In this document: positions 5,095-53,431 of the stretch, one piece after another
Position numbering within the stretch: the first letter of the stretch is position 1
How the letters are laid out: the number at the start of each line of letters is the position of its first letter
IMG/VR virus record: IMGVR_UViG_3300037882_001881
Coordinates: 4,784 to 68,783 of that record
Source: a virus
Direction: 5' to 3' (one strand)
Length of the DNA: 64,000 nucleotides
Position numbers and translations under genes: made by a program
The notes under the pieces: model-generated
Database searches by the model: none
The model's input: the letters and a program-made list of their open reading frames with translations, nothing else
What the model was told of the DNA's origin: nothing

Positions 5095-6098
5095 AGGGTC
5101 TCTCCTTTCAGGGTCCAAATCCCGTCGCTCTCTTGGAATAGGTCCGAGTGCTTCTTCAGGCAACGTCGCACGACATCACGCTTGATGTTCAGCTTGATTG
5201 CGAGTTCTCCCGCACTCCATCCTCGCTGGCGAGCAATTCCTTGATCCGCAGGGCCAGTACGCTCCGTTTTCCCTTTGGGATTATCGCGTACTTGCTGATT
5301 CTTCTTTTCAGCATCCGTTCGGTAATCCCCAGCAAGCTCGCGGTACGGGCCTTGTGGTAGTGGCATTCTGACAGGGCTTGCGAGATGCGATCTCGCTCCA
5401 CTTCGGCCAGAGTTCGTGTCTTTGTCGGTGGGCTTTCCTTCACGTTCGCACCTCGCTCGCATTCGTTTCAGAATAGAGGAATGAATCTGACTCACCCGTG
5501 ACTCCGACAGACCCAGGCGAGCACCAATCACGCTCATTGTCAGGGACGACACGTAGTACAGTTGGATGATTTGCCTCTCGTCACCAGAGAGACCCTTCAT
5601 CAACTCTTCCATGACCTCGGTCGTTCTTATTGAACGCTCTTGCGCTGCGAATGATCCGTCCGTCAGATCGTCCTTAAGCTCGGTGTCGTCTACTCCGTCA
5701 TCGAATCGCTTCGTGTACTCCAGGGAATAAACCCTGGCAGGGATCACCTCTCCGCTCTTTTCTCGGCGTCGCTCCAGGCGTGGAACCCAATCCCACTCGC
5801 GAATTCCGTCCAGAATCGCACCGAACAAGCGAGTTTGAGCGATCGACGTGAACGCGACTTTCCTAGCAGGGTCGAACCGCTGGACCATGTCGATCAACGA
5901 CACGGCGGCATTTTCCTCCAGGTCGTCGAGTGCCGTTCCGACATCCACGACCAATTTCTTCTTGGCTCGATAGGCGATCTCCCTGGCAAACGGCCAGTAG
6001 TGTTCCACGAGCCGATTCCGATTTACCTCAGAGCGATCCGAGAAGTACGCCGCCCACAAGGGCTTCGCCTGCTCGTTCAACAGTGCATACTTTGTCAT
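5091..6098 (-). CDS. FliA/WhiG-family (sigma-28-like) RNA polymerase sigma factor with long C-terminal extension
   Basis: RNRLVEHY, FDPARKVAFTS..RLFGAILDGIREWDWVPR (region 2), IIQLYYVSSLTMSVIGARLGLSESRVSQIH (region 4). Confidence 0.9.
   Translation of the reverse strand: MTKYALLNEQAKPLWAAYFSDRSEVNRNRLVEHYWPFAREIAYRAKKKLVVDVGTALDDLEENAAVSLIDMVQRFDPARKVAFTSIAQTRLFGAILDGIREWDWVPRLERRREKSGEVIPARVYSLEYTKRFDDGVDDTELKDDLTDGSFAAQERSIRTTEVMEELMKGLSGDERQIIQLYYVSSLTMSVIGARLGLSESRVSQIHSSILKRMRARCEREGKPTDKDTNSGRSGARSHLASPVRMPLPQGPYRELAGDYRTDAEKKNQQVRDNPKGKTERTGPADQGIARQRGWSAGELAIKLNIKRDVVRRCLKKHSDLFQESDGIWTLKGETL
5189..5443 (-). CDS. Fis-family HTH protein nested in another frame within the sigma ORF extension
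   Basis: TLAEVERDRISQALSECHYHKARTASLLGITERMLKRRISKY matches the HTH_8 pattern; GAGGT RBS before GTG. Confidence 0.8.
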   Translation of the reverse strand: MKESPPTKTRTLAEVERDRISQALSECHYHKARTASLLGITERMLKRRISKYAIIPKGKRSVLALRIKELLASEDGVRENSQSS

Positions 6099-6210
6099 TC
6101 TTGCGCCCTCCATCAAGGGACTATTTACAGGGATGGCCCACAAGTCAAACTCCACTAGTTCACTGTGTCCAAGTTGTCCAAATTTCGACAGTTATTACAG
6201 AGGCGTCAGC

Positions 6211-6906
6211 ATGGAAACTCCCACGAATCTCAAGAAGCGGCTCAACACTGAGGGTCGCTGGGCCGAGGCTTCATTAGCCTTCAACGAGATATTCGCCGAG
6301 AAGAAACAGACCATGCGTGCCGCAGTAGCCCGGCAGGCAACGTGGATCGAGCTAGGCATCCGTTTCCCGCCGCTGCTCGGCCCTGTCGGAGAACGCAAGG
6401 CTGCTCAATTCGCCGCTCGTAAACAGAAGGAGGAAAGACTGATTGCCACCCTCCCTGGTCGTGCCCCATTTCCTCCGGAACGCCCTTCCTTCCCTGCCGC
6501 AGAAACCGACTTCGAGATGCCGACTGATGACGAACCTGCTGACGACGCCTCCGCATCACTGCCAACGGGCCTCCCTGTCGGTGACTCGAACTTCGACCGG
6601 GACTTCGAGTGGGCCTACAACAACCTTGGTGCGGAGCTGGAACCATCCGCCGCACCATCTGGAGCCGCTTGGCTGCTCCGTGAAATCGGTCGCTCCCCGA
6701 AGGGCCGGGACAAATTCGTCGCAATGGCGCAGAAAACCCTATCCAAGAAGAACGACACCGAGAACGAGAAGAAGAACCGCGAAGATCGCTCTCGGCAATT
6801 CGCCCTACTCGATTCGATCAAACGCAGCTTCGCAGGGCTGGAAGAACCTCGGCAGCGCAAACCTAAAGCGACTCAATCCGCCGTCGCAGAGTCTTGTACC
6901 CCTTGA
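6211..6906 (+). CDS. Hypothetical protein, possible terminase small subunit
   Basis: GAGG RBS; divergent from sigma; helical, basic C-terminus; same strand as TerL. The TerS assignment is only a guess. Confidence 0.45.
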   Translation: METPTNLKKRLNTEGRWAEASLAFNEIFAEKKQTMRAAVARQATWIELGIRFPPLLGPVGERKAAQFAARKQKEERLIATLPGRAPFPPERPSFPAAETDFEMPTDDEPADDASASLPTGLPVGDSNFDRDFEWAYNNLGAELEPSAAPSGAAWLLREIGRSPKGRDKFVAMAQKTLSKKNDTENEKKNREDRSRQFALLDSIKRSFAGLEEPRQRKPKATQSAVAESCTP

Positions 6907-20685: not shown

Positions 20686-20921
20686 TATCCGCCCCCGTAT
20701 CGCTTGTCTCGGTTTGGTGTCGGTTGAAACGTCGATCCGCTTCGCTTCGTCAACGAGAACGAACCCAATGCTCTCGTCAACGGTGCGAAACTGTCCGACT
20801 TCTGGCTGATGATCCCTGACCCCTGCTTCGCAACAGCGTCGGCACAGTCTTTCTGAGTGGCACCAGTTAGCCCGGTGTCAGAATCTCGCCACAGGTTTAT
20901 TGTCGGGTCAAACGTAATCAA
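20685..20921 (-). CDS. Small hypothetical virion-module protein
   Basis: TTG start overlapping nozzle stop; stop overlaps next start. Confidence 0.45.
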   Translation of the reverse strand: MITFDPTINLWRDSDTGLTGATQKDCADAVAKQGSGIISQKSDSFAPLTRALGSFSLTKRSGSTFQPTPNRDKRYGGG

Positions 20922-23900
20922 TTTCTTACCTTCGTCAGACCGACATTGATGCGTTCCATTGACCAAGGCCCGGACGACCTCGACCCCTTGAAGTAAATCA
21001 CCCTGCCTCGCACTCGACGGCGACTCACAATGTTGCTGTTGACGGTTCCGTAGCTCACCCCCGGAGAAGCCAATGCCGCCTCGGCAGTATCCCCGTACAA
21101 CACCGACCACGAGGACAACCCGGTCTGCTCCGCCATCAAGCTCTCGACGACAACTCGGCCAGGGAACTGACTCACAGGTCCGATCGTCACGTAAGACTGG
21201 TACGCCGTGTCGTCGTCAGTCGTAGCGCTCGGATTGAGATAGAGAATCCGTCCGTCCCTGGTTCCGAACCCTAACTTGCGGTCATTCGACGAATCACCAT
21301 CCAGCGGAGTCACCGCCAATGGGTGCATCACATCGGTCGCAAACCGACACTTGAACCAGCCTTCGGTCCCGGCGTCGAAGAAGTACCAATACGGAGTCGC
21401 CGACAGGCTGTAAGGCGTCAGGAAGACATGCACCCCTTGCAGGTAGTTATCCCACATCAGGGACGGAACGTAGGCATCAAGATCGACTCCGATCATCCGC
21501 TCGACACCCAATGTCGTCAGACGGTCGGTCATAATCTGAGCGGGCGTGTTCAATCGCAGACGGTAGACACCGCCAGTTCGACCGAAGAAGTAAACCTGCC
21601 CCAACGGGTCTTTGCACCACGCTCGACCGAACGCCATGCCGGTCCCTGCCGCCGAGGTAATCTCGTCGAACACCGCACCCGCTGCCGGATCGCCGCTCCA
21701 CTGGTACAACCCGTTGTCACCCCCCAGGATCGCTAAGTCGTTGTTGTACGGAATCAGCCCGGTCATCACTCCGCCAGGAAACAACCCTGCCTTCGACAGA
21801 TTCCCGTTGAACGGAGCATCGACGTCACTGATTGACCCCGCCGCAGGGTACGACCAATTGTCCCAAGTGAATCGGCGAGTCGCCCAATAGTTCTGCGGAT
21901 CGCCGTCCATGCCGAACTGGACAACTCGATCCCGCCATGTTTCCACGCATCTCGGTGTCGATCCGTTCGCCGAAGGGAACGTCCCTGATGACGGCACCCA
22001 CGCCTTCAATTGACCGACCGAAGCGTCGTACATCAGCTTGTTCGTGCCGTCCGCAAACAGTACCAAATATCCGAGACTTGCCGCCCGAACAACCCTGGAC
22101 GTGCTGAACGTCCCGCCGGAAATCGTCGCCGGACTCGTCCCGATGCTAACGTCGAACAGCTTGCCACCTGCGATTGCCAGGGTCGTCAGCACGTGAGCCG
22201 ATGGGAGCCTGACATCCTCGACCGTGATTGCCAGAGTTGATGGCGTCACCGCTGCGTAATCCGCATCACTGGACGTCACCGAACTGGTGATCGACACCAC
22301 GACCGGGCCTTCCGATGTCGCATCAGCCACCCCTGTAACCGTCAGGTATTGCGACGTCGCGTAGTTCGCCGTCGTGAACGTCAGGGACGAAGTGACCGTC
22401 GCCTGACTCACATCCGAGCTTGTGAAGTTCACAGTCACGTTTGACGTCGGAGCACGACCAAGACGCAACCCGATCTGAAGAGTCGATCCCTCCTTGACGG
22501 ACCCTGCTGTCGCCCCGAACGTGTAGGCGACAGGGACATCCAGAACCGTGATCGTCAAATCACTCGGATTCAGCGAGTTGTAATTCGTGTCGCTCGACGA
22601 CTGCGTGGTCGTGATCGTCACCGTCGAATCTGACGTCACCGTTCCGCTGGTAATCGTAATGAACTGGTCGGTCGATGCCGTACTGTTTGCGGCGAACGTC
22701 AGGGACGAAGGAGACACCGTCGCCTTCCCTGTGTCTGAACTGGAGAAGCTGACCGTCACCGACGAACTCGGCGTCGATCCCAGCCGCAGTGGAATCTGGA
22801 CCGTCGATCCACCCTCGTTGAGCGTCGCTGCCGTTGCCCCGAAAAGGTAGCTCGTGATCGAGTCGTCCACATTCACGAGCACATCTTGCGGGTCTACTGC
22901 CGCGTAACGTCGATCAGTCGTCACCACCGTTGACGAGACCGTCACCAAATCCGTAGACTCTGACGTCGCATCCAACACGCCAAACACGAACACGCTCTTG
23001 GCGGTCGAATAATCCGCTGCCGTCCATGATAACGTGACCGACGTCGCTTTCGTCCCTGTCTGTGAAGTCGCCAACAGGGCCGTTTGCGGCTTGTCGCTGG
23101 TGAACGTGACCGAGACCGTGGTTCCAGGGTCGGGAGCCACCCCCAACGTCACTGTGAAGCTGTCGTAGGTTCGCTCGGTGATGCTGAAGGCAGTCTTCGA
23201 GTACAGGAAGCTCGCCGGGCTTCTGCCGCTGATCCCGGTCGTGTAGTCGATCATCCGAACGTAGTTGGACACTCCGGCCCTGATATTCGCCGCCGCTGTG
23301 TAGCCGACCGTTGCCGACCACAATTGCGTCAGGTCGTGACTCAGACCCACCACGTCCGCACTGCCGGTGTACCCCGCCGCGATCCAGCCCCACGGGGCAG
23401 GGGCGCACCATTCAAGGTTCGCGTTGGAGAGCGGATTTCCGGTCGCACCCGCTCCACCGTCCGACATCGAGAAGACTCTCGCATGAGGCGTCGTCCCTGC
23501 CGCCGTTCGATGCACAACCAACGCCGTATTCGTATCGCCGTTGTAAGCCACCGACGAATACTGCTCCGCCCGCTGATCGACGATTGGGACTTCCTGAGCG
23601 CTCAACGTCTGCGATGCCACGCTTGACGATGTGATCGCTGTCGTGACTGCCGTTGGTGATGCCAGGGTGTTCGGGAACGGATACGTGGCAATCACGTCGT
23701 AACTGTTCGAGCTGCTCGGAGCCACTTGGTTGAACGTCGATAGTAAGACCTGAGTCTTATCTGACCGCTGGCCCATCGCAATCAACTGCTGAGGTGCCGT
23801 GACACAGGGTCCGGTGAATGTCCCTGACGGCAACGCCACAAGTTGATCGGAGTCGATCGCTACGCCAGTATCGCACCGATACCCCTGGAGATGCGTCGTC

Positions 23901-26900
23901 GTGTAATCGCTGCTCGCCGTTGGGTACGACCCTGTTTCCGCGAGAACGATCCGAGGCGTCACTCCGTTCCCTGAAAGAATCGTCATCGCCCCGTGCCGAG
24001 CGACGTTCGCCGTACTGACGCCAATCCCGTTGACGAGTTTTGGAGTCGCTGTGCCGCCCTTTGGGCCGATCACCAATCCGCCGGTTGCAGACAATAGCCC
24101 GGCACTCGTCATGGCCAACTTCAACACCATCTGCTTGTCGTTACCGGAGACCGGGGCCGGTGTCGTAAAGTCGGCGATCGACATGCCCGTCAACGCACCA
24201 ACCCAAATCCATACGAACGAACTCGACGAATCCTGAACCGTCATGCCGTATATTGAGCTTCCTGCCGCAATCGTAAACAGGCTCGTTGCCGATGTAATCG
24301 CCGTCCCTGTTTTGTCCCTGACCTCGTACTGTACTTGCTGCTTCGAGGCAGTTCCGACCTGCGTCACAGGGGCATTCTGAGAATGCGTCGAAACCGCAGT
24401 ATTGTTAATCCCGCGAGTCACCGTGAACGTGTTCGAGCTGATTGCCGTCACGCTCATCTGCTCATTGTCGATCTGGATGGTGAATGGCAACAGGGTCGAA
24501 CCAGGGAACGACGACGCACTTGCCACCGTCACCGATTGACCGCCCGCATTCGCCACGCCGCTCGCTGCATTGAAGTTCTTCGCAACGGTCGCACCCTGAC
24601 CATGATTCTTTGCCAGGGCCGCAGTTCTCGTGACCGTCACCACACTGGTTGTCGTATTGATCGCCGTAACCGTCATTACTTCCGACTGAGCGGTCCCTGC
24701 ATCCACAACGATTGGGTAGTTCGAGACCGTGGCGTTTCCGCTGGCGGGGGCGAACGGCAACAGGGCCGCATTCGTGACCGTCAGTGTCGTGTCGCCCGTG
24801 TCAGCAACAGTCGCCGTTCCAGTGGAACCAACCAGGGTAATATCCACCCCTGACGCATGGTCTACCACCTGAGTCCCATTCACTCCGCGAGTCACCGTGA
24901 ACGTATTCGTTGACAGTGACGCAACGGACATCTCCTCGTTCTCAATGCGAATCGTGTAAGGCCCGGTCGTCGGAAATGTTGCCGCACTCGCCGACACAAC
25001 GCTTGTGCTGGGAGACCCTGTCAGTGTCGTCGTGACCGGAGTCTTCAAGGCGACCGTGGTTCCGACCGTTGGGTGATCGACAGGGTTCGGACGAGTGACT
25101 GTCACAGTATTCGTCGCAATAGACGAAACCGTCATTTCCTCGCTCTCAACCTTGATCACATATCCGCCGGTCGCTGGCAGCAACGCTCCGTTATCGACCG
25201 TGAACGTCGTCACGTTATTGGTCGTCAGGGTCGTGGATGAATACGTCGCCGCTGCCCCTCCAACAGCTACCGTATCCAGGGACACAGTAGCCCCGCTGAG
25301 GTGACTTGATATCGTCGTTGCCACTCCGTTCGACCCTGCGACTCCGCGAGCAACAATCGTCAACGAGGTTGAACTCGCCCTGGTGCAAGTCATCCGCTCA
25401 GTTCCCACCAGCACATTGAACTGACCGGACGTCGGAAATGTGCCGACACTCGGAGCCGTCACCGTCAGGGACGTAGCCCCCGTGCTCGTCACGGTTGTCG
25501 ATGGGGATTGAACCAGGGTCACGGTAGCGTTCGCCGCATGGGCTGCCGCCGTCGTCCCGAACTGAGCACGCACCAAGCCGCTGAACGTCGTGGTTGAACC
25601 GCCCGTAACCTTGATGATCTCGCTGTCTATCTGGACGTAGAAGAAATTCGTGGTCGTTCTCTGGCTTGGAAACAACCCCAAACTTGCGGAATCTGAAGCC
25701 ATAACAAACGCCGTTGACGCACTCGTCATCGAAGACGACAACTTCGACACGGCGAACATCGTGACCGTGGTACCCGTCTGATGATTCGCAGGGTCAGAAG
25801 TCACCGTCCCTGAACCAGAAACGTAATCGACCCCTCTCGTCAGGGTTGTCAGCGTGTTTGTGGCTGCTGTTCTACCTCCGACCCGAATCCGCTCGTTGTT
25901 GATCTGAATACCGAACGTACCGCTCGTCGGGAACCCTGCAAGGCTCGCCACCTTCAGGGCCGAAGTCTCCGCACTGGTGATCCCCGACAGAGCGTCAGCC
26001 GACAGTGCCGTGCTGGCATACGGAACAACGCTAGCTCCGTAGGAATGAGCCGCCGGACTCCCTGAGCGAGTCACCGTGAATGTCTTCGTGGTCGTATTGA
26101 GTCCGCTCGCCCCGACCGTCATTACCTCGCCGTCCACCTGAATGCTGTACGAACCTGCGGACGCAAACGGGAATGGAGTCGTGCTCCCGACCGTGAACGT
26201 CGTCGCCGATGTGTTGATCCCTGATGTCAGGGCCGCAGACAACGCCGCCGTCGCACTGCGGATCGTCGAACCCGCCGCGTGAGCCGCTGGAGTTGTGCTG
26301 TTGTAACCGCGAGTCGTTATGTTCAATCCGTTGCCAGTTCGCCCCGTACAAAGGATTGTTTCCGAGTCGATAGTCACACAAAACGCACCGCTGCTTGGGA
26401 ATCCGCTCCCGTCAGCCACAAGCAACGCACCCGATCCAGTGGTCCCTGATGCCAGCGAGCTGTCAAGCGTCGTGGACAGGGTCGTCTTGCCGTAGAGCGT
26501 CACCGCCGCTCCAGTTGGATGCCTCGTCTTTGTCGTGCCGTGTGACTCACGAGTTACCGTCAACGCAGTCCCGCTCTTAGCCGTCACCCGCATCAACTCG
26601 TTATCGACGCTAATCGTGAACGGGGCCGCAGGATAGAACGGAGCGGCACTCGACACATTCAGGGTCGTCGCACTGTCTGTCACCCCTGAATAGCACGCCG
26701 CAGACAACGACGTCGAACCCACCAGTGTAACGGTCGCACCCTGATTGTGTGACGCCGCCTGAGTGTCGTTGTAGTGCCTGCTCGTCACGGACAACGAGTT
26801 ACCCGTGACGCTCGCAATCTTGATCTGTTCTTGATCAATCTGAACGACGAAGTTCGTCAGGGACACACCCGCCGGGGTCACAAACACAGCCCCGTTCGTG

Positions 26901-27601
26901 ACCTGAATCGTCGTGTCGGAATCACTCAGGCTGCTGTAGACCGCCGTCGCCAACGTGCTCGATCCGCTGGCGTCCTTCGCCCTGGTCAAGATGACCGCTC
27001 GCCCGGTCTGAGTCCACGCAGACGCCAAATACGTCGCCTTCGGATCGGTATTGCGGTACGCCGTCTTCGTTGCCGTCCAAACTCCGGTCGTCGCATTCTG
27101 GACCGGGGTAATCATCACATACCCAGCATCAACGCCGTCACCCGGAAGAATGACCGTTCCGTCTCCCGCCGGATTCATCTGGAAGTTTGCCGCAGGGCCG
27201 GTCAAAGTCGTCGGAGCACCTCCCGATGGCGGAGCACTCAACGCCGCCTGACCGGAAGCGGTCGAGCTGGCCACAACCGAGTTCGTCGTCGTCGGCCCTG
27301 GCTGCGGAGTAATCGTCGTGTTGGTCGGGACATTTCCCGCCGGAACGGTCCCCTGCGACGCATTCGCTTGAATCAAGCATTGGATCGCATTGCTGCCGTC
27401 CAGGGCCGCAGAATGCCGCGTCGATCCGTGCCGAGACCCACCACGTTTCCGCTTGGTCCGACTGTCGATCACCAGCATATTAAGCATGTCTGGTGACGTC
27501 GCCTGATCCTGGCGATACAAGGCACTGCTCTCGTCGATCCCCTTCTCAGGGAACGGCAGGTCAATCGCTTGGTCGTCGCTCTGGTCCGGTTGATCGGGCA
27601 T
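20918..27601 (-). CDS. Tail nozzle / head-stabilisation-like protein with large insertion of beta-rich adhesin repeats (2227 aa)
   Basis: Nozzle-like N-terminus and C-terminal propeller-like region (WRDRVVQFG...YWAT, YWYFFD...GWF); about ten repeats IQIDxExMxVT...TVTRG...AxHxxGATV, then three Calx-beta/Ig-like units. Confidence 0.7.
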   Translation of the reverse strand: MPDQPDQSDDQAIDLPFPEKGIDESSALYRQDQATSPDMLNMLVIDSRTKRKRGGSRHGSTRHSAALDGSNAIQCLIQANASQGTVPAGNVPTNTTITPQPGPTTTNSVVASSTASGQAALSAPPSGGAPTTLTGPAANFQMNPAGDGTVILPGDGVDAGYVMITPVQNATTGVWTATKTAYRNTDPKATYLASAWTQTGRAVILTRAKDASGSSTLATAVYSSLSDSDTTIQVTNGAVFVTPAGVSLTNFVVQIDQEQIKIASVTGNSLSVTSRHYNDTQAASHNQGATVTLVGSTSLSAACYSGVTDSATTLNVSSAAPFYPAAPFTISVDNELMRVTAKSGTALTVTRESHGTTKTRHPTGAAVTLYGKTTLSTTLDSSLASGTTGSGALLVADGSGFPSSGAFCVTIDSETILCTGRTGNGLNITTRGYNSTTPAAHAAGSTIRSATAALSAALTSGINTSATTFTVGSTTPFPFASAGSYSIQVDGEVMTVGASGLNTTTKTFTVTRSGSPAAHSYGASVVPYASTALSADALSGITSAETSALKVASLAGFPTSGTFGIQINNERIRVGGRTAATNTLTTLTRGVDYVSGSGTVTSDPANHQTGTTVTMFAVSKLSSSMTSASTAFVMASDSASLGLFPSQRTTTNFFYVQIDSEIIKVTGGSTTTFSGLVRAQFGTTAAAHAANATVTLVQSPSTTVTSTGATSLTVTAPSVGTFPTSGQFNVLVGTERMTCTRASSTSLTIVARGVAGSNGVATTISSHLSGATVSLDTVAVGGAAATYSSTTLTTNNVTTFTVDNGALLPATGGYVIKVESEEMTVSSIATNTVTVTRPNPVDHPTVGTTVALKTPVTTTLTGSPSTSVVSASAATFPTTGPYTIRIENEEMSVASLSTNTFTVTRGVNGTQVVDHASGVDITLVGSTGTATVADTGDTTLTVTNAALLPFAPASGNATVSNYPIVVDAGTAQSEVMTVTAINTTTSVVTVTRTAALAKNHGQGATVAKNFNAASGVANAGGQSVTVASASSFPGSTLLPFTIQIDNEQMSVTAISSNTFTVTRGINNTAVSTHSQNAPVTQVGTASKQQVQYEVRDKTGTAITSATSLFTIAAGSSIYGMTVQDSSSSFVWIWVGALTGMSIADFTTPAPVSGNDKQMVLKLAMTSAGLLSATGGLVIGPKGGTATPKLVNGIGVSTANVARHGAMTILSGNGVTPRIVLAETGSYPTASSDYTTTHLQGYRCDTGVAIDSDQLVALPSGTFTGPCVTAPQQLIAMGQRSDKTQVLLSTFNQVAPSSSNSYDVIATYPFPNTLASPTAVTTAITSSSVASQTLSAQEVPIVDQRAEQYSSVAYNGDTNTALVVHRTAAGTTPHARVFSMSDGGAGATGNPLSNANLEWCAPAPWGWIAAGYTGSADVVGLSHDLTQLWSATVGYTAAANIRAGVSNYVRMIDYTTGISGRSPASFLYSKTAFSITERTYDSFTVTLGVAPDPGTTVSVTFTSDKPQTALLATSQTGTKATSVTLSWTAADYSTAKSVFVFGVLDATSESTDLVTVSSTVVTTDRRYAAVDPQDVLVNVDDSITSYLFGATAATLNEGGSTVQIPLRLGSTPSSSVTVSFSSSDTGKATVSPSSLTFAANSTASTDQFITITSGTVTSDSTVTITTTQSSSDTNYNSLNPSDLTITVLDVPVAYTFGATAGSVKEGSTLQIGLRLGRAPTSNVTVNFTSSDVSQATVTSSLTFTTANYATSQYLTVTGVADATSEGPVVVSITSSVTSSDADYAAVTPSTLAITVEDVRLPSAHVLTTLAIAGGKLFDVSIGTSPATISGGTFSTSRVVRAASLGYLVLFADGTNKLMYDASVGQLKAWVPSSGTFPSANGSTPRCVETWRDRVVQFGMDGDPQNYWATRRFTWDNWSYPAAGSISDVDAPFNGNLSKAGLFPGGVMTGLIPYNNDLAILGGDNGLYQWSGDPAAGAVFDEITSAAGTGMAFGRAWCKDPLGQVYFFGRTGGVYRLRLNTPAQIMTDRLTTLGVERMIGVDLDAYVPSLMWDNYLQGVHVFLTPYSLSATPYWYFFDAGTEGWFKCRFATDVMHPLAVTPLDGDSSNDRKLGFGTRDGRILYLNPSATTDDDTAYQSYVTIGPVSQFPGRVVVESLMAEQTGLSSWSVLYGDTAEAALASPGVSYGTVNSNIVSRRRVRGRVIYFKGSRSSGPWSMERINVGLTKVRN

Positions 27602-44123: not shown

Positions 44124-45959
44124 CTACCCCTGATCGTTACTGTCGGACATCGCCGACATCGCCTGCATTCTCTGAACACGCTGCCCCTGCGGCGTATTCC
44201 CCCCGGAAACACTCTCTCGCACATAGTTCCGTGTCGTACTTGGCGACATTCCTGGACCGTCGCTGCTCGTCGCAGACGGCGGCACCGCTTGACCACCAAA
44301 CTTGATCCACTGTCGCAGGGCCGGTTCGTCGAGGTACTCAGCCAATGTGTCGATCATCTGTCGGAAGTCGATCATTCCGCCCGCTGCCATCAACGGCTGC
44401 ATCATCGGAGCGAACACGGTCCCGACCAGCCCAATGAGCTTCTGTGCTCGCTCTGCCGGGGACTGATACCGCATCGAATACGGTTCAACGTTGTGCGAAT
44501 ACTGATCGAACTTGCCCTGTCGCTCGTCCGGAGTCCACGTGGCGTCGATCGGCACACTGACGCCCGGTATCTGCCGAGTCGCCGCGATCGTCTTTGTCTG
44601 GTCGTCCCACAGCATTGAGCACAGGGACCGAATGATTCCCGCCGTCCAGCCGACGACCCGCTGAGCCATCTTCGCATCGACCGCCGACACCTGCCCGTGA
44701 ATCAGCTTGTCTTGCGTTGCCGTCGCTGCCTGCGGCCCCAATCCGTTCCTCGCGTCGAGATTCCCGGCCTGACGGCTGAACGCCCCTTCGACCACCTGAT
44801 GGAACATCATCGTCTGCTGATCGACGCCGTTGAACGAGATTTCGCGTATCGCCTCCGGATTGTTCACCCGGACCATGTCGCCGTTCTTGGCTTCTTTGAC
44901 GTTCTTGGCGTCGTTGGGATCGCCGGAATACGTCGCCATCGTCTTACGATTGACGGCATCTGAGGCCAACTTGCGCCACAGCTTGTTTCCCAACTCGTCG
45001 AGGTTCGCGAGGTGTTGAGCTGGACCCATCCCGATAACGGCATCCGGAACGTCGATAAACGTCAGCCGATGGAACGGCCCGTCTTCGTACTCCCAATCCG
45101 TCACCATCAGGGGCGGAAGCGTCTCGTCCCGGACGAGAATGACCCACTTCGATTCCCGCTTCAGGTACACATCGAGCAACGTCACCATCGGCTCGATATC
45201 ATCGACGTCGGTCTCGTTCTTGCCCTGCTCGTCCGCCCGCTCTTGATGCTCGTACTTCCGATCCGACCACTTACTGTCAGCCTTGATCCGCTCGACAACC
45301 GCTTGGTCGAACCTCGAATCCTCCCTGATTTCCGACAGTGGGACGCGGTACTGATGCGTCTCAAACCGAACTTCGTCGTCGCATGACGCCGTCATGTCAA
45401 CCACATAGTCGTCGAGCGACACGCACCACGCCGACAGCTTGCCAGGGTCCACTTGGACCGTCTGAGGAACAATTTGCTGAGACAACTGGTACGCCACCCA
45501 CGTTTCCGGCGGGTCGTACATCCCTGGTTCCGGCGGAAAATCCGGATTCATAACATCGACATACTTCCGGCTCGGAACCCTCGCACACTTCACGACCGCA
45601 AACCCGAAGAACGCATCGAGCACACCCCGCTGAAGGACACCCTCCAACTTGATCTCTTCGATGAGCCGATTCGTGCTCGCCTCGTAATTCGCTGCGAACG
45701 CCGTCAATTCAGGGTATTGCGTACTGATCGAGCACCGAGGCCGATCCCCTGCCAACGACATCATGTAGCTATCTGCTGCCAGGGCCATTTGGTTCGCAAC
45801 CACAACCTTTTGGTGTTCGCTGGACGACCCGTACTTGTCCCCGATGTACTGTTTGACGAGCGCAATCCGGTTCTTGCGGAACGGACGAAGCATCTTCTCG
45901 CTCGTCTTCCACACCTTCCAGAATGACGCCAAGTCGTCAGGGCGAGTTAGATCAAGCAT
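44124..45959 (-). CDS. Portal protein
   Basis: About 610 aa, first large gene of head operon; GPFHRLTF...PDAVIG, ATATQDKLI, YSMRYQSPAER podoviral portal-like motifs. Confidence 0.82.
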   Translation of the reverse strand: MLDLTRPDDLASFWKVWKTSEKMLRPFRKNRIALVKQYIGDKYGSSSEHQKVVVANQMALAADSYMMSLAGDRPRCSISTQYPELTAFAANYEASTNRLIEEIKLEGVLQRGVLDAFFGFAVVKCARVPSRKYVDVMNPDFPPEPGMYDPPETWVAYQLSQQIVPQTVQVDPGKLSAWCVSLDDYVVDMTASCDDEVRFETHQYRVPLSEIREDSRFDQAVVERIKADSKWSDRKYEHQERADEQGKNETDVDDIEPMVTLLDVYLKRESKWVILVRDETLPPLMVTDWEYEDGPFHRLTFIDVPDAVIGMGPAQHLANLDELGNKLWRKLASDAVNRKTMATYSGDPNDAKNVKEAKNGDMVRVNNPEAIREISFNGVDQQTMMFHQVVEGAFSRQAGNLDARNGLGPQAATATQDKLIHGQVSAVDAKMAQRVVGWTAGIIRSLCSMLWDDQTKTIAATRQIPGVSVPIDATWTPDERQGKFDQYSHNVEPYSMRYQSPAERAQKLIGLVGTVFAPMMQPLMAAGGMIDFRQMIDTLAEYLDEPALRQWIKFGGQAVPPSATSSDGPGMSPSTTRNYVRESVSGGNTPQGQRVQRMQAMSAMSDSNDQG

Positions 45960-46137
45960 GTTGCTCCACTTGCTGTTCGACCCTGTGCATCGCATCCCGC
46001 AGCAACGCCCAGCTCTTCGAGCGAGGGTCGTTATCCGTCAGGGCTGCAAACAAACAGTTGTGAGCACCGCAGGAGTCCTGAGTGGCAAACGCCAACATCA
46101 GGTCTATGAACTTGCGAGTACGTGCGATATTTCCCAT
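45952..46137 (-). CDS. Small hypothetical protein
   Basis: 61 aa, AGGGGG RBS, overlaps portal start. Confidence 0.55.
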   Translation of the reverse strand: MGNIARTRKFIDLMLAFATQDSCGAHNCLFAALTDNDPRSKSWALLRDAMHRVEQQVEQHA

Positions 46138-46151
46138 GTGAACCCCCTAAA

Positions 46152-46232
46152 TGCAGAATGGTGGAATCGAACCACCCACGCCCACGTGCCAACTTAGGCT
46201 GGCTGCGGGCCGTCGCCTTGAACGTATTCCGC
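46152..46232 (-). ncRNA. tRNA-like cloverleaf with extended anticodon arm
   Basis: Acceptor GCGGAAT/ATTCTGC, T arm GGTGG-TTCGATT-CCACC, long arm GCCCGC-A-GCCAGC-CTAA-GTTGGC-AC-GTGGGC. Confidence 0.7.
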
Positions 46233-46236
46233 AAAG

Positions 46237-46305
46237 AGCCAGGGGCGGAGTTGCACCGCTCGGAGGGCGTTCTGCCACAACCCATCGCTACGAAAAGTCC
46301 CCGGC
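46237..46305 (-). ncRNA. Second degenerate tRNA-like element
   Basis: Acceptor GCCGGGG/CCCTGGC, T-like arm GCGG-TGCAACT-CCGC; non-canonical interior. Confidence 0.55.
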
Positions 46306-46434
46306 ATAACATTTAGTTCGGCACAACCCGCAGCAATTAGAAATACATCCCCGGAATTTCTCCGATCTTATTCCTGATGTTCCGTCTGTTTTCGCCGAGC
46401 GTCCCGCCGGAACGCTCGCAGGGAGGTTTGCTCG

Positions 46435-48414
46435 GTGTTCGATCTTTTCAGCTTCAATTCTCGTTCCGCCGCCTTCACTGAATTGATGCGGCTCAACTCG
46501 ACAGACTCGCTTCCCCTCGGCAAAACATCCCTGTTCTACAAGGCTCTCTGTCCGCCCGACCCTGAGCAGAACATCGACTACCGCAAACGAGTGATGGAAC
46601 TCGCCTACGATCACCCGCAGGCCGAAGAGTACCGGCACCTCTTCTACACCCTGGCGTCCCGCGACATTCTCTTTTGGGTGAACACGTTCGTTTACACGCA
46701 CTCGCCAAAAGACTTCCCCGATTCTCCCATCCGACCCTTCGCGACGTGGGAGAAGTACCAAAACCGCGACATCCTGAAGATCCAGGCCGCGATTGGTAAC
46801 TACGACTTGACGATCACCAAGTCCCGCGACATGGGCGCAACAAACATCTGCTTGCTCCCGATCCGGCATCGCTGGCAGTTCAAGGCCAACCAACGCTTCC
46901 TTCTCGCCTCCGAGAAAGAAGACCTTGTCGAAAAGTCTGGCGACATGCGTGCCCTGTTCGAGAAAATCGACTTCATCGACCGCTACATGCCGAACTGGAT
47001 GCTCCCGACAGGGCGGGAACTCGGCAACTCCGACCCGCACCGCACGAACAAACATCTCGGCAACGCCGACAACGGTTCGACGATCGAAGGTGAGGCGACC
47101 GTCCGCAATCTCGGACAGGGCGACCGCTTGACCGCTGTCCTGATCGACGAATACTCCTCGATTCCCTTCGCCGAGCACATCGAGCGTGCCACCCGCGACG
47201 CCACAAAATGCCGTATCCGCAACTCGACCCCCAAGCCCCGTAACGCCGAGGGTGCAACCTTCTTCCGGTACTTCGACCGCGAGATGAAGCGTGACTCGTC
47301 CGACGACAATCCCCGCCTGATCGTCGAGCACTGGACCCAGCACCCGCTGAAAGCCGCCGGTCTCTACAAAATCGACGACAACGGGCAGAAGATCGTCCTC
47401 GACCCTGAAGCCTACGATTGGCGACAGGACTTCCCATTCACCGAACGCAACAAGCCCCACTCCCCGTGGTACGACGAGCAGTGCGAACGTGCGAACTCGA
47501 AGGTGGAAATCTCCCAGGAACTCGATCTCGACTTCTACGGCCTTGGTCGCAGGGCGTTCGACGCCGACCTACTCTCGCGACTCCGTCTCCGAGCCAAGCC
47601 GCCTGCCGCGACCTACCAAGTGTTCCTCGACGACAACGGCAAGCTCCTGATTCTTCCGAACGTGGACGGCAACTTCCGTCTCTGGTGTCCCTTCGGATCG
47701 CAGGAACCACCCGTCTCGGACTACATCTTCGGCGAAGACATCGCCGCAGGGACCGCCGGGGACTCTTCCTCGAACTCCGCTATCTGCATCGTCGATGCCC
47801 GCCTGAAGCAAGTGGCCGGAACCCTGAAGGACAACTCGATCGACCCTGGCCGCTTCGCGCAACTCTGCTTCGCCCTCGGAAAGCTCTTCCACGACGCTTT
47901 CCACTGCCCTGAAGTGAACGGCCCGACCGGGCAACAGTTCCTCGCCGCGATGATACCCCTGACGACGAACATGATCATTCGCGGGCAACACGTCGAGAAC
48001 GAGCACTCCCGCAAGTCCAAGCGGTACGGCATCCACAACAACGACCGTGGCACCCTGCTACTCTCGCAGCTCCAGATCGACCTGCGGGACAACCACATAC
48101 ACATCCCGGACGAAGACACCCTCGACGAACTCGCCGAGTACGAAATGGCTGACGACGCGAAGTTCTCGCACGGCGGAGCAACCGACCCCAACTCCGCAGC
48201 ACACGGCGACCTTGCAATCGCAACCGCCGGTGCCGCCCTCGGTCTCCGAGAACGCCCCGCCCCCGATCCCCCGATCGACCTCACGACATCCCTGCCCGAA
48301 CTCGGAGACTCCTTCAACCCCGAAGACAACCCTGACGCCGAACTCTACTTCGGCTGCATGGCCTACCGAGACAAGCTCCGCGACAACTCAGGGTTCGATG
48401 CTTGGGAACCCTAA
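46435..48414 (+). CDS. terL: Terminase large subunit
   Basis: ITKSRDMGAT (Walker A variant), AVLIDEY (Walker B), NSTP (motif III), YIFGEDIAAG and HGDLAIA (RNase H nuclease). Confidence 0.93.
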   Translation: MFDLFSFNSRSAAFTELMRLNSTDSLPLGKTSLFYKALCPPDPEQNIDYRKRVMELAYDHPQAEEYRHLFYTLASRDILFWVNTFVYTHSPKDFPDSPIRPFATWEKYQNRDILKIQAAIGNYDLTITKSRDMGATNICLLPIRHRWQFKANQRFLLASEKEDLVEKSGDMRALFEKIDFIDRYMPNWMLPTGRELGNSDPHRTNKHLGNADNGSTIEGEATVRNLGQGDRLTAVLIDEYSSIPFAEHIERATRDATKCRIRNSTPKPRNAEGATFFRYFDREMKRDSSDDNPRLIVEHWTQHPLKAAGLYKIDDNGQKIVLDPEAYDWRQDFPFTERNKPHSPWYDEQCERANSKVEISQELDLDFYGLGRRAFDADLLSRLRLRAKPPAATYQVFLDDNGKLLILPNVDGNFRLWCPFGSQEPPVSDYIFGEDIAAGTAGDSSSNSAICIVDARLKQVAGTLKDNSIDPGRFAQLCFALGKLFHDAFHCPEVNGPTGQQFLAAMIPLTTNMIIRGQHVENEHSRKSKRYGIHNNDRGTLLLSQLQIDLRDNHIHIPDEDTLDELAEYEMADDAKFSHGGATDPNSAAHGDLAIATAGAALGLRERPAPDPPIDLTTSLPELGDSFNPEDNPDAELYFGCMAYRDKLRDNSGFDAWEP

Positions 48415-51018: not shown

Positions 51019-51101
51019 TCTTCAACAGGGTCGGAACGCTCCGACCCTGTCGATATATCCCGTGAGTGATGGACCTCACACCGATCAGAAAGGGCACACA
51101 A

Positions 51102-52709
51102 ATGCCGACAGTCACCTATTCCCCCGAAGACAACAAAATCCGCCTCTATGTTGGCAGGGTTCCCCGCGACGAGTACGAGACGCTCAGGGCCGCAGGCTTC
51201 GTCTCCACCCCCAAACAGAACTGCGATTTTGTCGCCACTTGGACCCCTGGACGCGAAGACCTCGCGAAAGAGTACCTTGAAGACGGTGAAGACATTGGCG
51301 ACGAGGACTACAGCCCTGAAGAGCGTGCCGCCGACAGGGCCGAACGCTTCGGAGGCTATCGAGACAAGCGAGCCACTGAAGCCGGTGCCGCTGCTGATGT
51401 GTTCGAGTCAGGGCCGCAGGCTTTCGGCTCCCAATCTCTCGCCAGGGCCGAGCGTCAGGCCCGCCGACACGATCGGCACCGCGTCTACGCTGTCTCTCAG
51501 TGGTCTAAGGCTGAGTACTGGCAGCAACGCACCGCCGGAGTGATCGCCAACGCTCTCTATAAATCCTCGCCGCATGTTCGCAGGGGCCGCATCTTGACCC
51601 TCGAAGCCGAACAGCGGAAACAACTCGCGTCGATCGCAGAGTCACAGGCGCGATACGATGCTTGGCACCGACTCGCCACGATGGAAGGAGCCGACGACAT
51701 GCTTCCGCTCAACGAGGATGGCTATGTCTCCGGCGAGCTGAACCCAGCCCAACGGCTTGCCTGCACGCTCGCCAATCACGGCAACGGCTGGTCCTCATTC
51801 TGGCACCCTACATGCGAAGCCGCTAACGAGAAGTCGAGGGAGGTCCACAAGACCTACGGCGCAGGGTTCAGCCCTTACGACCTGTTGACCAAGACCGTTT
51901 ACATTGGCACACAGTTCGACCGCCTGACACCACGCCAAGTCGCCCAGCTCTACGTCAACAAATACACGAACCCAAGCAACCCCGGCACACACTCGCAACG
52001 ATGGGCGAGCCATTACGAACTTCGCTTAGAGTATGAAAACGACATGCTTGCCAACGAGGGCGGAATGGTCGGCGAAGCTGACATCGAGGTCGGCGGTTGG
52101 ATTCGTGGCGCAGACACAGAAACTTGGCTGCGACGTCTGCCTGCTGTTACGTGGCACCAAATCCAGGGAATCTCTCGCTCACCAAAGACCAAGCGAGTCA
52201 CGAGCGTTAAAGTCAACGGCTTCACCCGCAGCGAAATCGAGAAGAACAACGGAAAGCCAGTCTTGGTCAGCGTCAACATCGAGCGTCTCGGCGAAGGTTG
52301 CTACAGGGCACCGACAGACGAGGAGCGGGCCGCATTCTCAGCCACAAAGAAAACCCTGAAGGCTGCGACGCCATCAACCCCGACAATCAATCCCACTCTC
52401 AAAGATGCTCAAGCCCTTCAGGACTTTTGGAACGCCGAAGCTCTTTCCGGCGGGAAAACGACCAAGGTCGTCGAGGTACGCCAGATGACACAGGCGGAGT
52501 TCAGCGGTCGCCTCAAGCATGAGCACGCCCAAATCTCTACGCACACCCTCGGAGGCCAACGCCTCAAGCTACGCACTGCCAGGGGCGGAGGCTTCTACGA
52601 TTACCGCGCCGCCCGTCAAGTTATCGTCCTGACCGACAAGCCGCAGAAGTCATTGCCTCCCAATTGGGCCGTCGTCGAAACCTCAACGCCTGAACTCGTC
52701 GAGGCGTAG
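51102..52709 (+). CDS. DUF3560-like domain protein
   Basis: ATWTPGREDLA...DED....ERAADRAERF..Y..KR, AEYWQQR, RRGRI..LEAEQRK. Confidence 0.8.
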   Translation: MPTVTYSPEDNKIRLYVGRVPRDEYETLRAAGFVSTPKQNCDFVATWTPGREDLAKEYLEDGEDIGDEDYSPEERAADRAERFGGYRDKRATEAGAAADVFESGPQAFGSQSLARAERQARRHDRHRVYAVSQWSKAEYWQQRTAGVIANALYKSSPHVRRGRILTLEAEQRKQLASIAESQARYDAWHRLATMEGADDMLPLNEDGYVSGELNPAQRLACTLANHGNGWSSFWHPTCEAANEKSREVHKTYGAGFSPYDLLTKTVYIGTQFDRLTPRQVAQLYVNKYTNPSNPGTHSQRWASHYELRLEYENDMLANEGGMVGEADIEVGGWIRGADTETWLRRLPAVTWHQIQGISRSPKTKRVTSVKVNGFTRSEIEKNNGKPVLVSVNIERLGEGCYRAPTDEERAAFSATKKTLKAATPSTPTINPTLKDAQALQDFWNAEALSGGKTTKVVEVRQMTQAEFSGRLKHEHAQISTHTLGGQRLKLRTARGGGFYDYRAARQVIVLTDKPQKSLPPNWAVVETSTPELVEA

Positions 52710-52795
52710 CAGATGGCAGGGCTGAGCCGTTCAGCCCTGTAATGCACTCCGGCGGAGCGTCCCGCCGGAACGGTCCAAAGTCCGAGGCTCTCACC

Positions 52796-53431
52796 ATGTC
52801 ACGATCCACCGGAATCCTCCGCCTGCGGCACCTTCGCGAAGTCACCGAGGCCAGGGCCGAAGAGATGGCCGCTCAGGCTCCTCGCTTCCAGAGACTTACC
52901 CGCGAAGACTCTGCCCCACGGGCTATCTCGTCGTTCAATCTCTTTCAGACTCCGCCGTCACTTGCTGCCAGGGTCGTAGCCTTGCTCGGTCGCACTGGCC
53001 GCACCCTGGAGCCGTCCGCCGGTCTCGGTCGCCTTTACCTCGCCGCCCGTGCTGCTGATCCATCCTCGCCCTTTGTGCTAGTTGAGCAGTCGCCCGACTG
53101 CTGCGGTGAGCTTTACAGGGCCACAGCAAACGACCACGACTGCCGGTTGATCCAGGGCGATTTTCTCGCCCAATCACCAACTTCGCTCGGACTGTTCGAT
53201 TGCGTTGTGATGAATCCCCCGTTCAAGATGGGGCGAGACGTCAAGCACATCGAGCACGCTTTGCGGTTCCTCGCCCCTGGTGGTCGCCTCGTCTCGATCT
53301 GTGGCACAGGGTCGAGACGTCAACCGTTGTTCGATCGTGCCTCCCAAGTGATCCCACTGCCGCCCGGCTCATTCCGTTCCGAGGGGACAGGGGCCGAGGC
53401 TTCGATTGTTGCTTTCGATCAGGGCCGGTAG
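52796..53431 (+). CDS. N6-adenine DNA methyltransferase-like protein
   Basis: NLFQTPP, LEPSAGLG (motif I), GDFL, FDCVVMNPPF (motif IV), F..EGT. Confidence 0.9.
   Translation: MSRSTGILRLRHLREVTEARAEEMAAQAPRFQRLTREDSAPRAISSFNLFQTPPSLAARVVALLGRTGRTLEPSAGLGRLYLAARAADPSSPFVLVEQSPDCCGELYRATANDHDCRLIQGDFLAQSPTSLGLFDCVVMNPPFKMGRDVKHIEHALRFLAPGGRLVSICGTGSRRQPLFDRASQVIPLPPGSFRSEGTGAEASIVAFDQGR

What the first reader, a model, noticed from the sequence alone, without database searches (positions are those of the whole stretch)
46152..46305. Tandem non-canonical tRNA-like RNAs heading the virion operon
Seen: two back-to-back minus-strand elements 4 nt apart, each with a 7-bp acceptor stem and T-arm. The portal-proximal one has a perfect TTCGATT T-loop, reduced D arm and an elongated bulged arm capped by CTAA (CUA triplet but no U33 or 7-nt loop, so decoding is doubtful). 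Established: tRNA-like folds are RNase P substrates in phage regulatory RNAs (P1 C4, P4 CI). Inference: processed regulatory RNAs, decoys for anticodon-nuclease defences, or mRNA processing signals. The second element contains TTTTCGTAGCG, with only 5-nt complementarity to loops of the two kissing-loop leaders (speculative).
Basis: partly seen in the sequence, partly recalled or inferred. Interest (0 to 1): 0.75.

Follow-up and report, generated by a model that had tools for sequence, protein, structure and literature searches.

The report
Anticodon-less tRNA mimics before phage portal operon
Two tRNA-shaped but non-decoding RNA folds sit directly in front of the first gene of a phage's head-building operon, most likely as cutting or stabilising marks for host tRNA-trimming enzymes on the phage message.

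Summary
Element 1 (46152-46232, minus) folds as a cloverleaf: a 7-bp acceptor stem, a reduced D arm that keeps GG, a canonical T arm, and a 12-bp bulged arm capped by CUAA instead of an anticodon loop. Its fold is more stable than all 200 shuffles. ARAGORN calls no tRNA in the window, and Rfam gives only a sub-threshold tRNA-Sec hit.

Three related phage contigs carry the same element at the same place, ending 3-4 nt before the ribosome-binding site of a conserved 60-61-aa ORF that precedes the portal gene. Across them:
- The acceptor, D and T stems covary: 13 of 28 pairs change on both sides and 98% of cells stay paired.
- The D and T loops stay fixed.
- The long arm changes in length, sequence and cap (CUAA, GACG, UCUUU). 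It therefore does not decode.

Element 2 (46237-46305) is a degenerate paralogue. It scores 24.9 bits against a model built without it, but its fold is weak and it is absent from two relatives.

Best reading: a tRNA-derived leader element, a phage "t-element", handled by RNase P and RNase Z. No RNA ends were seen, so the mechanism is inferred. The amber-suppressor, attP and simple-pseudogene readings are disfavoured.

The parts
46152..46232 (-). Element 1: anticodon-less tRNA-like element (TLS). Acceptor 46232-46226 / 46159-46153, D arm 46224-46211, long bulged arm 46210-46180 (cap CUAA 46197-46194), T arm 46176-46160, discriminator A 46152.
   Evidence: Cloverleaf MFE, z -3.39, 0/200 shuffles. 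Retained in the 201-nt context fold. Orthologues in L001, L013 and L004 with covariation. Rfam tRNA-Sec 20.9 bits only. ARAGORN none.
46237..46305 (-). Element 2: degenerate paralogue of element 1. 7-bp acceptor, 4-bp T stem, T loop UGCAACU, D region without GG, 6-nt loop on a bulged arm.
   Evidence: 24.9 bits against model R2, which was built without it. Fold not better than shuffles and not kept in the context fold. Absent from L004 and L013. All 6 listed differences of a related contig fall inside it.
46233..46236 (-). Spacer CUUU between the discriminator of element 2 and G1 of element 1; its last base is U(-1) of element 1.
   Evidence: Read from the sequence.
46135..46151 (-). UUU spacer, Shine-Dalgarno AGGGGG (46148-46143), 5-nt spacer and ATG (46137-46135) of the small ORF. 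This leaves no room for a promoter between element 1 and the gene.
   Evidence: Same layout in L001, L013 and L004.
45952..46137 (-). Conserved 61-aa ORF, first gene of the operon; function unknown (no Pfam or PHROG hit).
   Evidence: Homologous 60-63-aa ORFs in L001, L004, L013, L057 and L006.
44124..45995 (-). Portal protein (SU10-like), second gene of the operon.
   Evidence: Pfam PF23899 3.6e-15; PHROG 1216.
46306..46434 (.). Rest of the divergent intergenic region (promoters and leaders of both operons, with a hairpin near 46390-46415). Identical between the window and L001 over about 195 nt together with element 2.
   Evidence: Alignment A1. No sigma-70-like promoter found.
46435..48414 (+). 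Divergently transcribed terminase large subunit gene (GTG start).
   Evidence: PHROG 5989 2.5e-8; ORF list.

Best explanation
Element 1 is a tRNA-derived RNA structure in the 5' leader of the phage's head-morphogenesis operon (small ORF, portal, and downstream genes). It probably descends from a type-II tRNA. It has lost the anticodon loop but keeps the upper half of a tRNA.

Proposed mechanism:
1. The operon is transcribed from a promoter upstream of the elements.
2. The leader folds into the cloverleaf.
3. Host RNase P cuts at U(-1)|G1 (46233|46232).
4. RNase Z, or an equivalent 3' enzyme, cuts after the CCA-less discriminator (46152|46151).

This would remove the long structured leader. It would give an mRNA that starts 3-4 nt before the Shine-Dalgarno sequence. 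If only the 5' cut occurs, the message would instead carry a base-paired, nuclease-resistant 5' end. Either way a stable ~81-nt tRNA-like RNA would be released.

Element 2 is an older or duplicated copy of the same device that is decaying.

Shown here: the fold, its conservation with compensatory changes, the loss of decoding features, and the fixed position against the ribosome-binding site.

Inferred: co-transcription with the operon, cleavage by RNase P and RNase Z, and the effect on expression.
For: (1) Cloverleaf fold. z is -3.39 and 0/200 shuffles fold as well. The fold is kept when 201 nt of context are folded.

(2) Orthologues at the same site. L001 (portal 97% identical), L013 and L004 (77%) were found with a model built from the window and L001 only. 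L013 scores 31.4 bits (E 1.3e-4) and L004 21 bits (E 0.048) in 502 kb from 89 sources.

(3) Covariation on 5 sequences and 28 pairs.
- 98.3% of 119 cells are paired.
- 13 pairs change on both sides.
- 0/500 shuffles reach these values.
- Slid controls give 33-50% paired and 2-5 such pairs.
- 5 of 7 acceptor pairs and 4 of 5 T-stem pairs change on both sides.

(4) Window against L001. 3 of 81 positions differ. All three lie in the long arm and all keep pairing: G.U to A-U, C-G to U.G, and G.U to G-C.

(5) Conserved loops. The D loop CAAGGC (with GG) and the T loop U(U/G)CGAUU are invariant. The long arm differs in length and cap.

(6) 5' context. U at -1 and G at +1 are present in all copies. 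That this is the preferred bacterial RNase P context is recalled knowledge.

(7) 3' context. No CCA is encoded. The discriminator lies 3-4 nt before the SD in all four phage copies, so the operon's promoter must lie upstream of the element.

(8) Precedent. Plant mitochondrial t-elements are non-canonical cloverleaves with the GGTTCRANYCC T-arm word. Their ends coincide with mRNA 5' and 3' ends and are attributed to RNase Z and RNase P (PMC1920247, abstract and passages read).

(9) The same phage carries a twister ribozyme between two genes, so RNA cutting in its polycistronic messages is not isolated.
Against: - No RNA ends were observed. The only RNA-library material was assembled contigs, which cannot show ends or strand.
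- The host is unknown, so the presence of RNase Z is unknown.
- The element is not needed for the operon as such. L057 (portal 68%) has the same divergent layout without it, and L006 (77%) has a co-oriented gene there instead.
- Only four phage copies exist, two of them near-identical. The alignment used for pair counts was fitted to the model and includes one bacterial sequence (L106) that was picked by a D-loop/T-loop pattern.
- In L013, L004 and element 2 the acceptor/T stack is 11 bp, not 12.
- An RNase Z cut would leave a 5'-monophosphate mRNA, which is often less stable, not more.
Confidence: 0.5

Rival explanations
1. Trans-acting tRNA mimic. The released ~81-nt RNA, not the cut in the mRNA, is the product. 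It would act as a decoy or sponge for proteins that read the tRNA acceptor stem and elbow: host tRNA-targeting defence toxins, tRNA-modifying enzymes, or the CCA-adding enzyme. This is compatible with the same processing steps.
For: The acceptor, elbow and T arm are conserved or covary. Two copies lie in tandem in the window. A similar anticodon-less element follows a real tRNA in a bacterial MAG, away from any Shine-Dalgarno sequence. The window copy has G3.U70 and A73, which are the alanine identity marks (recalled knowledge).
Against: The fixed 3-4-nt distance to the SD in all four phage copies is not required for a trans-acting RNA. The anticodon arm is not conserved, which rules out anticodon-nuclease decoys. 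G3.U70 is absent from L013 and L004. No partner protein is evident among the 45 ORFs scanned.
Confidence: 0.2
2. Decaying tRNA pseudogenes without function, left from a former phage tRNA gene pair.
For: Element 2 fits this reading.
- Its fold is no better than shuffles.
- GG is lost from its D region.
- It is absent from L004 and L013.
- All 6 listed differences of a related contig fall in its 68 nt, and none are listed in the 127 nt upstream (depth 3.1, so some may be errors).

Relatives L057 and L006 lack both elements. A real tRNA-Met lies upstream of the portal gene in the distant relative L071.
Against: For element 1, 13 of 28 pairs show compensatory changes and 98% of cells stay paired, while the flanking intergenic DNA is not alignable between the window and L013/L004. 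All 3 substitutions against L001 preserve pairing. The position relative to the SD is fixed.
Confidence: 0.1
3. A working but odd decoding tRNA, for example an amber suppressor reading UAG through the CUA in the cap, or a quadruplet reader.
For: CUA is present in the 4-nt cap of element 1. The acceptor and T arm are fully tRNA-like.
Against: There is no 7-nt loop and no U33. The cap is GACG in L013 and UCUUU in L004. ARAGORN finds no tRNA and Rfam has no tRNA hit. All three stop codons close long ORFs under table 11, and TAG ends the portal gene and the 3279-aa ORF.
Confidence: 0.03
4. A DNA-level site (attP core, pac site or origin) that merely looks like a tRNA.
For: Phages often integrate into tRNA genes and carry tRNA-like att cores. 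The site lies between the terminase and portal genes.
Against: The integrase gene is 44 kb away at 950-2080. A whole cloverleaf is present, with both acceptor strands, and not just a 3' tRNA fragment. Compensatory changes in stems argue for a folded single strand.
Confidence: 0.05

Closest known systems
t-elements of plant mitochondria (Forner et al. 2007, PMC1920247; abstract and passages read)
   Same: Non-canonical cloverleaves that keep the T-arm word GGTTCRANYCC and the acceptor stem but do not decode. They are embedded in mRNA precursors, and their ends coincide with mRNA 5' or 3' ends. They are attributed to RNase Z and RNase P, and the released t-element can be stable and receive non-templated C/A.
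   Different: Those are organellar, not from a phage of bacteria, and their processing was mapped experimentally. Here there is no RNA evidence. This element abuts a Shine-Dalgarno sequence, and there is no sequence relationship to the plant elements.
Canonical tRNA genes of phages / type-II tRNAs (Ser, Tyr)
   Same: Acceptor stem, T arm, and D-loop GG. The D-arm word shared by all copies also occurs in ARAGORN-called tRNA-Ser (L122) and tRNA-Tyr (L124) of other viral contigs, which suggests descent from such a tRNA.
   Different: No anticodon loop. The D arm is shortened on its 5' side. ARAGORN and the Rfam tRNA model do not detect it.
   Same: Phage RNAs cut out of longer transcripts through a tRNA-like acceptor/T-stem mimic.
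   Different: Those are antisense regulators with conserved target-pairing loops. Here the only long single arm is variable, no target was sought or found, and the element has a full elbow (D and T loops).
tmRNA tRNA-like domain
   Same: Acceptor stem, T arm, reduced D region, and a long helix in place of the anticodon arm. The window copy has G3.U70.
   Different: No mRNA-like part or tag ORF (ARAGORN finds no tmRNA). The long helix is a closed hairpin. G3.U70 is absent from L013 and L004.
Eukaryotic-virus and nuclear tRNA-like processing modules (MHV68 TMERs, MALAT1 mascRNA): recalled knowledge
   Same: A non-decoding tRNA-like fold used so that RNase P/RNase Z separate it from a neighbouring functional RNA.
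   Different: Different domain of life, polymerase and downstream product. No homology.

Membership tests
tRNA (Rfam RF00005 / ARAGORN definition) | Detected by the family model at its threshold | tested here: not met
   ARAGORN finds 0 genes in the window and none at the orthologous sites. Rfam has no RF00005 hit at E up to 10 in 45800-46700 and none at E up to 1 in L013 or L004.
tRNA (Rfam RF00005 / ARAGORN definition) | 5-bp anticodon stem with a 7-nt loop, U33 and a purine at position 37 | tested here: not met
   The arm has 12, 9 or about 10 bp, with 4-5-nt caps CUAA, GACG and UCUUU.
tRNA (Rfam RF00005 / ARAGORN definition) | 7-bp acceptor stem, T arm with a UUCRANY loop, and D-loop GG | tested here: met
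   Met for element 1. Element 2 meets the acceptor criterion only: its T loop is UGCAACU and its D region has no GG.
t-element-like mRNA processing signal (functional class) | Non-canonical cloverleaf with a conserved T-arm word inside an mRNA precursor | tested here: met
   Fold shown. GGTTCGATTCC is present in element 1. No room for a promoter before the SD. Class definition taken from PMC1920247.
t-element-like mRNA processing signal (functional class) | Element borders coincide with mapped RNA ends; cleavage by RNase P/RNase Z | not testable with these tools
   Only assembled contigs of RNA libraries were available. They show no ends or strand.
tmRNA | tRNA-like domain joined to a tag-encoding mRNA-like domain, with conserved G3.U70 | tested here: not met
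   ARAGORN finds no tmRNA. G3.U70 occurs only in the window and L001.
YrlA / bacterial Y RNA | Adjacent Ro (TROVE) gene; tRNA-like module closed at the acceptor end with a Ro-binding stem formed by the RNA ends | tested here: not met
   No TROVE domain among 45 ORFs scanned. No Rfam hit. Here the RNA ends form the acceptor stem.
C4/CI-type antisense RNAs | Conserved loops complementary to target sites in the regulated operon | not tested
   No target search was run. The only long arm is not conserved among copies.

The most novel reading that the evidence does not exclude
Phages of this clade, and perhaps others, make a dedicated class of anticodon-less tRNA mimics. These would be excised from late-operon leaders by the host's own tRNA-trimming enzymes and then act in trans. 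They could soak up defence toxins or enzymes that recognise the acceptor stem and elbow of tRNAs. The window's copy could additionally be chargeable with alanine through G3.U70/A73. A similar element next to a real tRNA in a myxobacterial MAG would then be a cellular or prophage member of the same class.
Probability: 0.12. Interest if true: 0.8.

Novelty: new variant of a known kind. Interest (0 to 1): 0.5.

Why it matters
If the reading is right, a double-stranded-DNA phage has converted a tRNA gene into a pure processing or stability signal for its structural-gene message. This is the bacterial-virus counterpart of mitochondrial t-elements and of tRNA-like punctuation in eukaryotic systems. 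It would give a compact, portable module, recognised by universal enzymes, that sets an mRNA 5' end a few bases before the ribosome-binding site.

It also shows that elements which tRNA finders skip can be picked up by covariation. The element is testable with simple in vitro RNase P and RNase Z assays.

Full-text searches for phage tRNA-like processing signals listed no paper that describes such an element. I read only titles and abstract openings in those listings.

Tried and rejected
- **Amber suppressor or odd decoder.** Rejected: the loop anatomy is wrong, the cap is not conserved, and TAG is used as a stop.
- **Alanine-accepting tmRNA-like domain.** G3.U70/A73 occur only in the window and L001. 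Not conserved.
- **attP.** The integrase is 44 kb away.
- **Sigma-70 promoter scan of 45900-46700.** 0 sites. The phage encodes a sigma-like protein, so this says little.
- **More relatives.**
  - The portal profile found no relative in genome contigs.
  - The terminase query in viral contigs gave only L001's contig, L057's contig and two 30% relatives.
  - tblastn of the portal against 'phages' gave no match.
- **Pattern scans for the D-loop/T-loop words.**
  - In viral contigs the strict pattern found only L001's contig.
  - The relaxed pattern gave 12 loci, of which L125 is L001's own contig again. Of the 11 others, which were scanned with ARAGORN and R2, the pattern lies within ARAGORN-called tRNAs in three (L122, L124, L126); the remaining eight were not examined further.
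  - In genome contigs there were 21 loci, of which only L106 looks like the same kind of element. L095 and L092 lie in stretches that I read as probably coding, by eye only.
- **R2 over 100 sources (532 kb).** Beyond the training copies and element 2, it gave weak hits that I did not follow: L095 28.4 bits, L048 22.8, L092 21.4, L093 20.5, L102 19.5, L054 18.0 and L097 17.2.
- **Sequencing runs.**
  - X6: nothing laid.
  - X1: two contigs stop at 46172 and restart at 46370. A hole proves nothing.
  - X10 (RNA library): one 166-nt contig on 46320-46485 only.
  - X11 (RNA library): one contig of a relative on 46223-46432, which then continues with unlike letters inside element 1.
  - None of these shows transcription, strand or ends.
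- **Orthology of element 2 or element 1 to the single element of L013/L004.** Pairwise identities do not decide it.
- **Predicted pairing of element 2's 3' half with the SD in the 201-nt fold.** The overall z is -0.25, so I do not build on it.
- **Earlier notes of this scan.** None for this genome or sequence.

Full report
**Where the finding lies**

The window is part of a 68.8-kb IMG/VR virus record that is about 71% complete. The finding lies in a 297-nt divergent intergenic region.
- To the right, on the + strand from a GTG at 46435, is a terminase large subunit gene (PHROG 5989).
- To the left, on the - strand, is an operon that opens with a 61-aa ORF (46137-45952). It continues with an SU10-like portal gene (44124-45995; Pfam PF23899; PHROG 1216) and further virion genes, including an SU10-like adaptor.

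**Observation: element 1**

Element 1 (46232 to 46152, minus strand) folds with ViennaRNA into a cloverleaf at -38.1 kcal/mol. Its z-score is -3.39, and none of 200 dinucleotide shuffles folds as well. It has:
- a 7-bp acceptor stem with one G.U;
- a single linker base;
- a 4-bp D stem with the 6-nt loop CAAGGC;
- a 6+6-bp arm with a 1x2 internal loop, closed by the tetraloop CUAA;
- a 3-nt variable region;
- a 5-bp T stem with loop UUCGAUU;
- a discriminator A, followed by UUU and not CCA.

The same cloverleaf survives when 201 nt of context are folded.

**Observation: element 2**

Element 2 (46305 to 46238) has a 7-bp acceptor stem and a 4-bp T stem with loop UGCAACU. Its fold is no better than shuffles (z -0.26, 74 of 200), and it is not kept in the context fold.

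**What standard tools say**

Neither element is called a tRNA.
- ARAGORN finds nothing in the whole window.
- Rfam at gathering thresholds finds only a twister ribozyme elsewhere.
- At E up to 10, the region gives a single sub-threshold tRNA-Sec hit on element 1: 20.9 bits against a gathering score of 47, E 0.22.

**Is element 2 more than chance?**

I ran a loose descriptor: a 7-bp closing stem with at most one G.U, an adjacent 4-5-bp stem with a 7-nt loop, and total length 60-95. It matches 32 times on both strands of the window, so the bare architecture is common. Only three of these have a T-loop of the form U-(U/G)-C-(A/G)-A: the two elements and one site inside the 3279-aa ORF.

More decisively, covariance model R2 was built from element 1 and its relatives without element 2, and it scores element 2 at 24.9 bits.
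- E is 1e-5 in 801 nt with filters off.
- E is 8.9e-4 in the whole record.
- E is 0.0069 in 532 kb.

Its D region is also close in sequence to that of the L004 copy. Element 2 is therefore a real but degenerate paralogue. The record holds no third copy.

**Relatives**

I used portal homologues (70 proteins) and a 20-sequence profile to fetch contigs:
- 54 metagenome loci;
- 35 viral loci;
- none in bacterial or archaeal genomes.

Model R1 was built from the window and L001 only. Over 89 sources (502 kb), R1 found the element in L013 (31.4 bits, E 1.3e-4) and L004 (21 bits, E 0.048), and nothing else above noise.

In all four phage copies the element is on the operon strand and ends 3-4 nt before a Shine-Dalgarno sequence (AGGGGG or GAGGUG). 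The start of the homologous small ORF follows 4-5 nt later.

The element is absent from:
- L057 (portal 68% identical), which has the same divergent layout;
- L006 (77%), where a co-oriented gene precedes the small ORF.

ARAGORN on 60 of the fetched loci found one tRNA. This is a tRNA-Met upstream of the portal gene in L071, followed by a terminator-like hairpin.

**Conservation pattern**

Between the window and L001, 3 of 81 positions differ. All three are in the long arm, and each keeps its pair: G.U to A-U, C-G to U.G, and G.U to G-C.

I counted pairs on the model-fitted alignment of five sequences: window, L001, L013, L004 and the bacterial L106.
- 98.3% of 119 cells are standard pairs.
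- 13 of 28 pairs change on both sides.
- None of 500 column shuffles reaches these values.
- Sliding the partners by 1-3 columns drops pairing to 33-50% and the compensatory pairs to 2-5.
- Five of seven acceptor pairs and four of five T-stem pairs covary.
- D-stem pair 2 is G-C in the window and A-U in L013.

The D loop CAAGGC and the T loop U(U/G)CGAUU do not change.

By contrast, the long arm has different lengths and sequences, with caps CUAA, GACG and UCUUU. The flanking intergenic DNA cannot be aligned between the window and L013/L004.

Caveats:
- There are few sequences.
- The alignment was fitted to the structure.
- L106 was selected by a pattern for the two loops.
- L013, L004 and element 2 have an 11-bp rather than a 12-bp acceptor/T stack.

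**What it is not**

- *Not a decoder.* There is no 7-nt loop and no U33, and the cap is not conserved. All three stop codons close long ORFs under table 11, and TAG ends the portal gene.
- *Not a tmRNA.* There is no tag region, and G3.U70 occurs only in the window and L001.
- *Not attP.* The integrase gene is at 950-2080.
- *Element 1 is not a neutrally decaying pseudogene,* given the compensatory changes.

**Origin**

The D-arm word shared by all copies also occurs in ARAGORN-called tRNA-Ser (L122) and tRNA-Tyr (L124) of other viral contigs. Descent from a type-II tRNA that lost the 5' half of its D arm and its anticodon loop is therefore plausible. This is inference.

**Mechanism (inferred)**

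The features under selection are the determinants read by tRNA end-processing enzymes and not by the ribosome or synthetases:
- the acceptor/T stack;
- the D-loop/T-loop elbow;
- U(-1)/G(+1);
- a CCA-less 3' side.

That these are the enzymes' determinants is recalled knowledge. PMC1920247 (passages read) states that RNase Z cuts at, or one base after, the discriminator. The same paper states that folding of the tRNA structure is the prerequisite.

No promoter can fit in the 3-4 nt before the SD, so the element must be part of the operon's leader.

The most economical model is a phage t-element. RNase P and RNase Z would excise it, removing the long leader and leaving an mRNA that begins just before the SD. 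Alternatively, after the RNase P cut alone, the message would carry a paired 5' end. A stable tRNA-like RNA would be a by-product, or possibly the real product (rival 1).

The twister ribozyme between two + strand genes (52708-52785) shows that this phage also uses another RNA-cutting device.

**RNA data**

One search of public runs and one laying of four runs gave only assembled contigs.
- X10 (RNA library): a contig covers 46320-46485.
- X11 (RNA library): a contig of a relative covers 46223-46432.
  - It carries six listed differences, all inside element 2. One of them turns the T loop into UUCAACU.
  - It then continues with unlike sequence inside element 1.

These contigs cannot show transcription, strand or ends, so I draw no conclusion on expression from them.

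**Literature**

The t-element precedent was read in passages (PMC1920247). Searches for phage tRNA-like processing signals or decoys listed no paper on such a phage element. I saw only the listings.

It is an unchecked AI note and not independent evidence.

**Verdict**

- Element 1 is a conserved, structured, non-decoding tRNA-derived RNA at the head of the virion operon.
- Element 2 is a decaying copy.
- The processing-signal mechanism is the best-supported reading (about 0.5) but is untested.
- I rate it as a new variant of a known kind.

Noticed in passing
window 52708-52785 (+): Twister-P5 ribozyme hit above Rfam's gathering score (41.4 bits against 37.6, E 3.2e-5). It lies between the stop of ORF 51066-52709 and the start of the methyltransferase ORF 52742-53431. 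It could be a self-cleaving site inside a polycistronic phage message.
   Followed up: no
L106 1489-1557 (-) = L115 1501-1569 (-), Kofleriaceae MAG: An anticodon-less tRNA-like element with the same reduced D arm and T loop lies 6 nt after a real tRNA. It scores 34 bits with R1 and 62 bits with R2, which was trained with it. The tRNA scores 52 bits in Rfam and is called tRNA-Phe by ARAGORN. A further T-arm-like fragment follows. The same genome has a second weak hit (L116, 27 bits). No Pfam hit in the surrounding ORFs.
   Followed up: partly
window 5091-6155 (-): An ORF with a sigma-70 region 4 domain (Pfam 4.1e-15), likely a phage sigma factor. It may explain why no sigma-70-type promoter is seen before the virion operon.
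   Followed up: no
window 950-2080 (-): Tyrosine integrase (Pfam Phage_integrase, 1.2e-9), so the phage is probably temperate. It lies 44 kb from the tRNA-like elements.
   Followed up: no
window 6863-16702 (-): A 3279-aa ORF with a MutS domain I near residues 1312-1403 (Pfam 3.4e-16). A 2227-aa ORF at 20918-27601 has a tail-fibre PHROG hit.
   Followed up: no
window 46265-46272 with 46140-46147 (-): In the 201-nt context fold, the 3' half of element 2's arm pairs with the Shine-Dalgarno region of the small ORF and encloses element 1. This could be an anti-SD switch, but the fold's z-score is -0.25 and the pairing is not testable in L013/L004, which lack element 2.
   Followed up: partly
window 46200-46395 (-): About 195 nt are identical between the window and L001, covering element 2 and the leader upstream of it. 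The neighbouring coding DNA differs at several percent (alignment A1). This suggests strong constraint or a recent exchange of the regulatory region.
   Followed up: no
L071 2289-2361 (+): A distant relative (portal 36% identical) carries a genuine tRNA-Met about 140 nt upstream of its portal gene, followed by a terminator-like hairpin. The slot before the portal gene may be a recurrent home for tRNA genes.
   Followed up: partly
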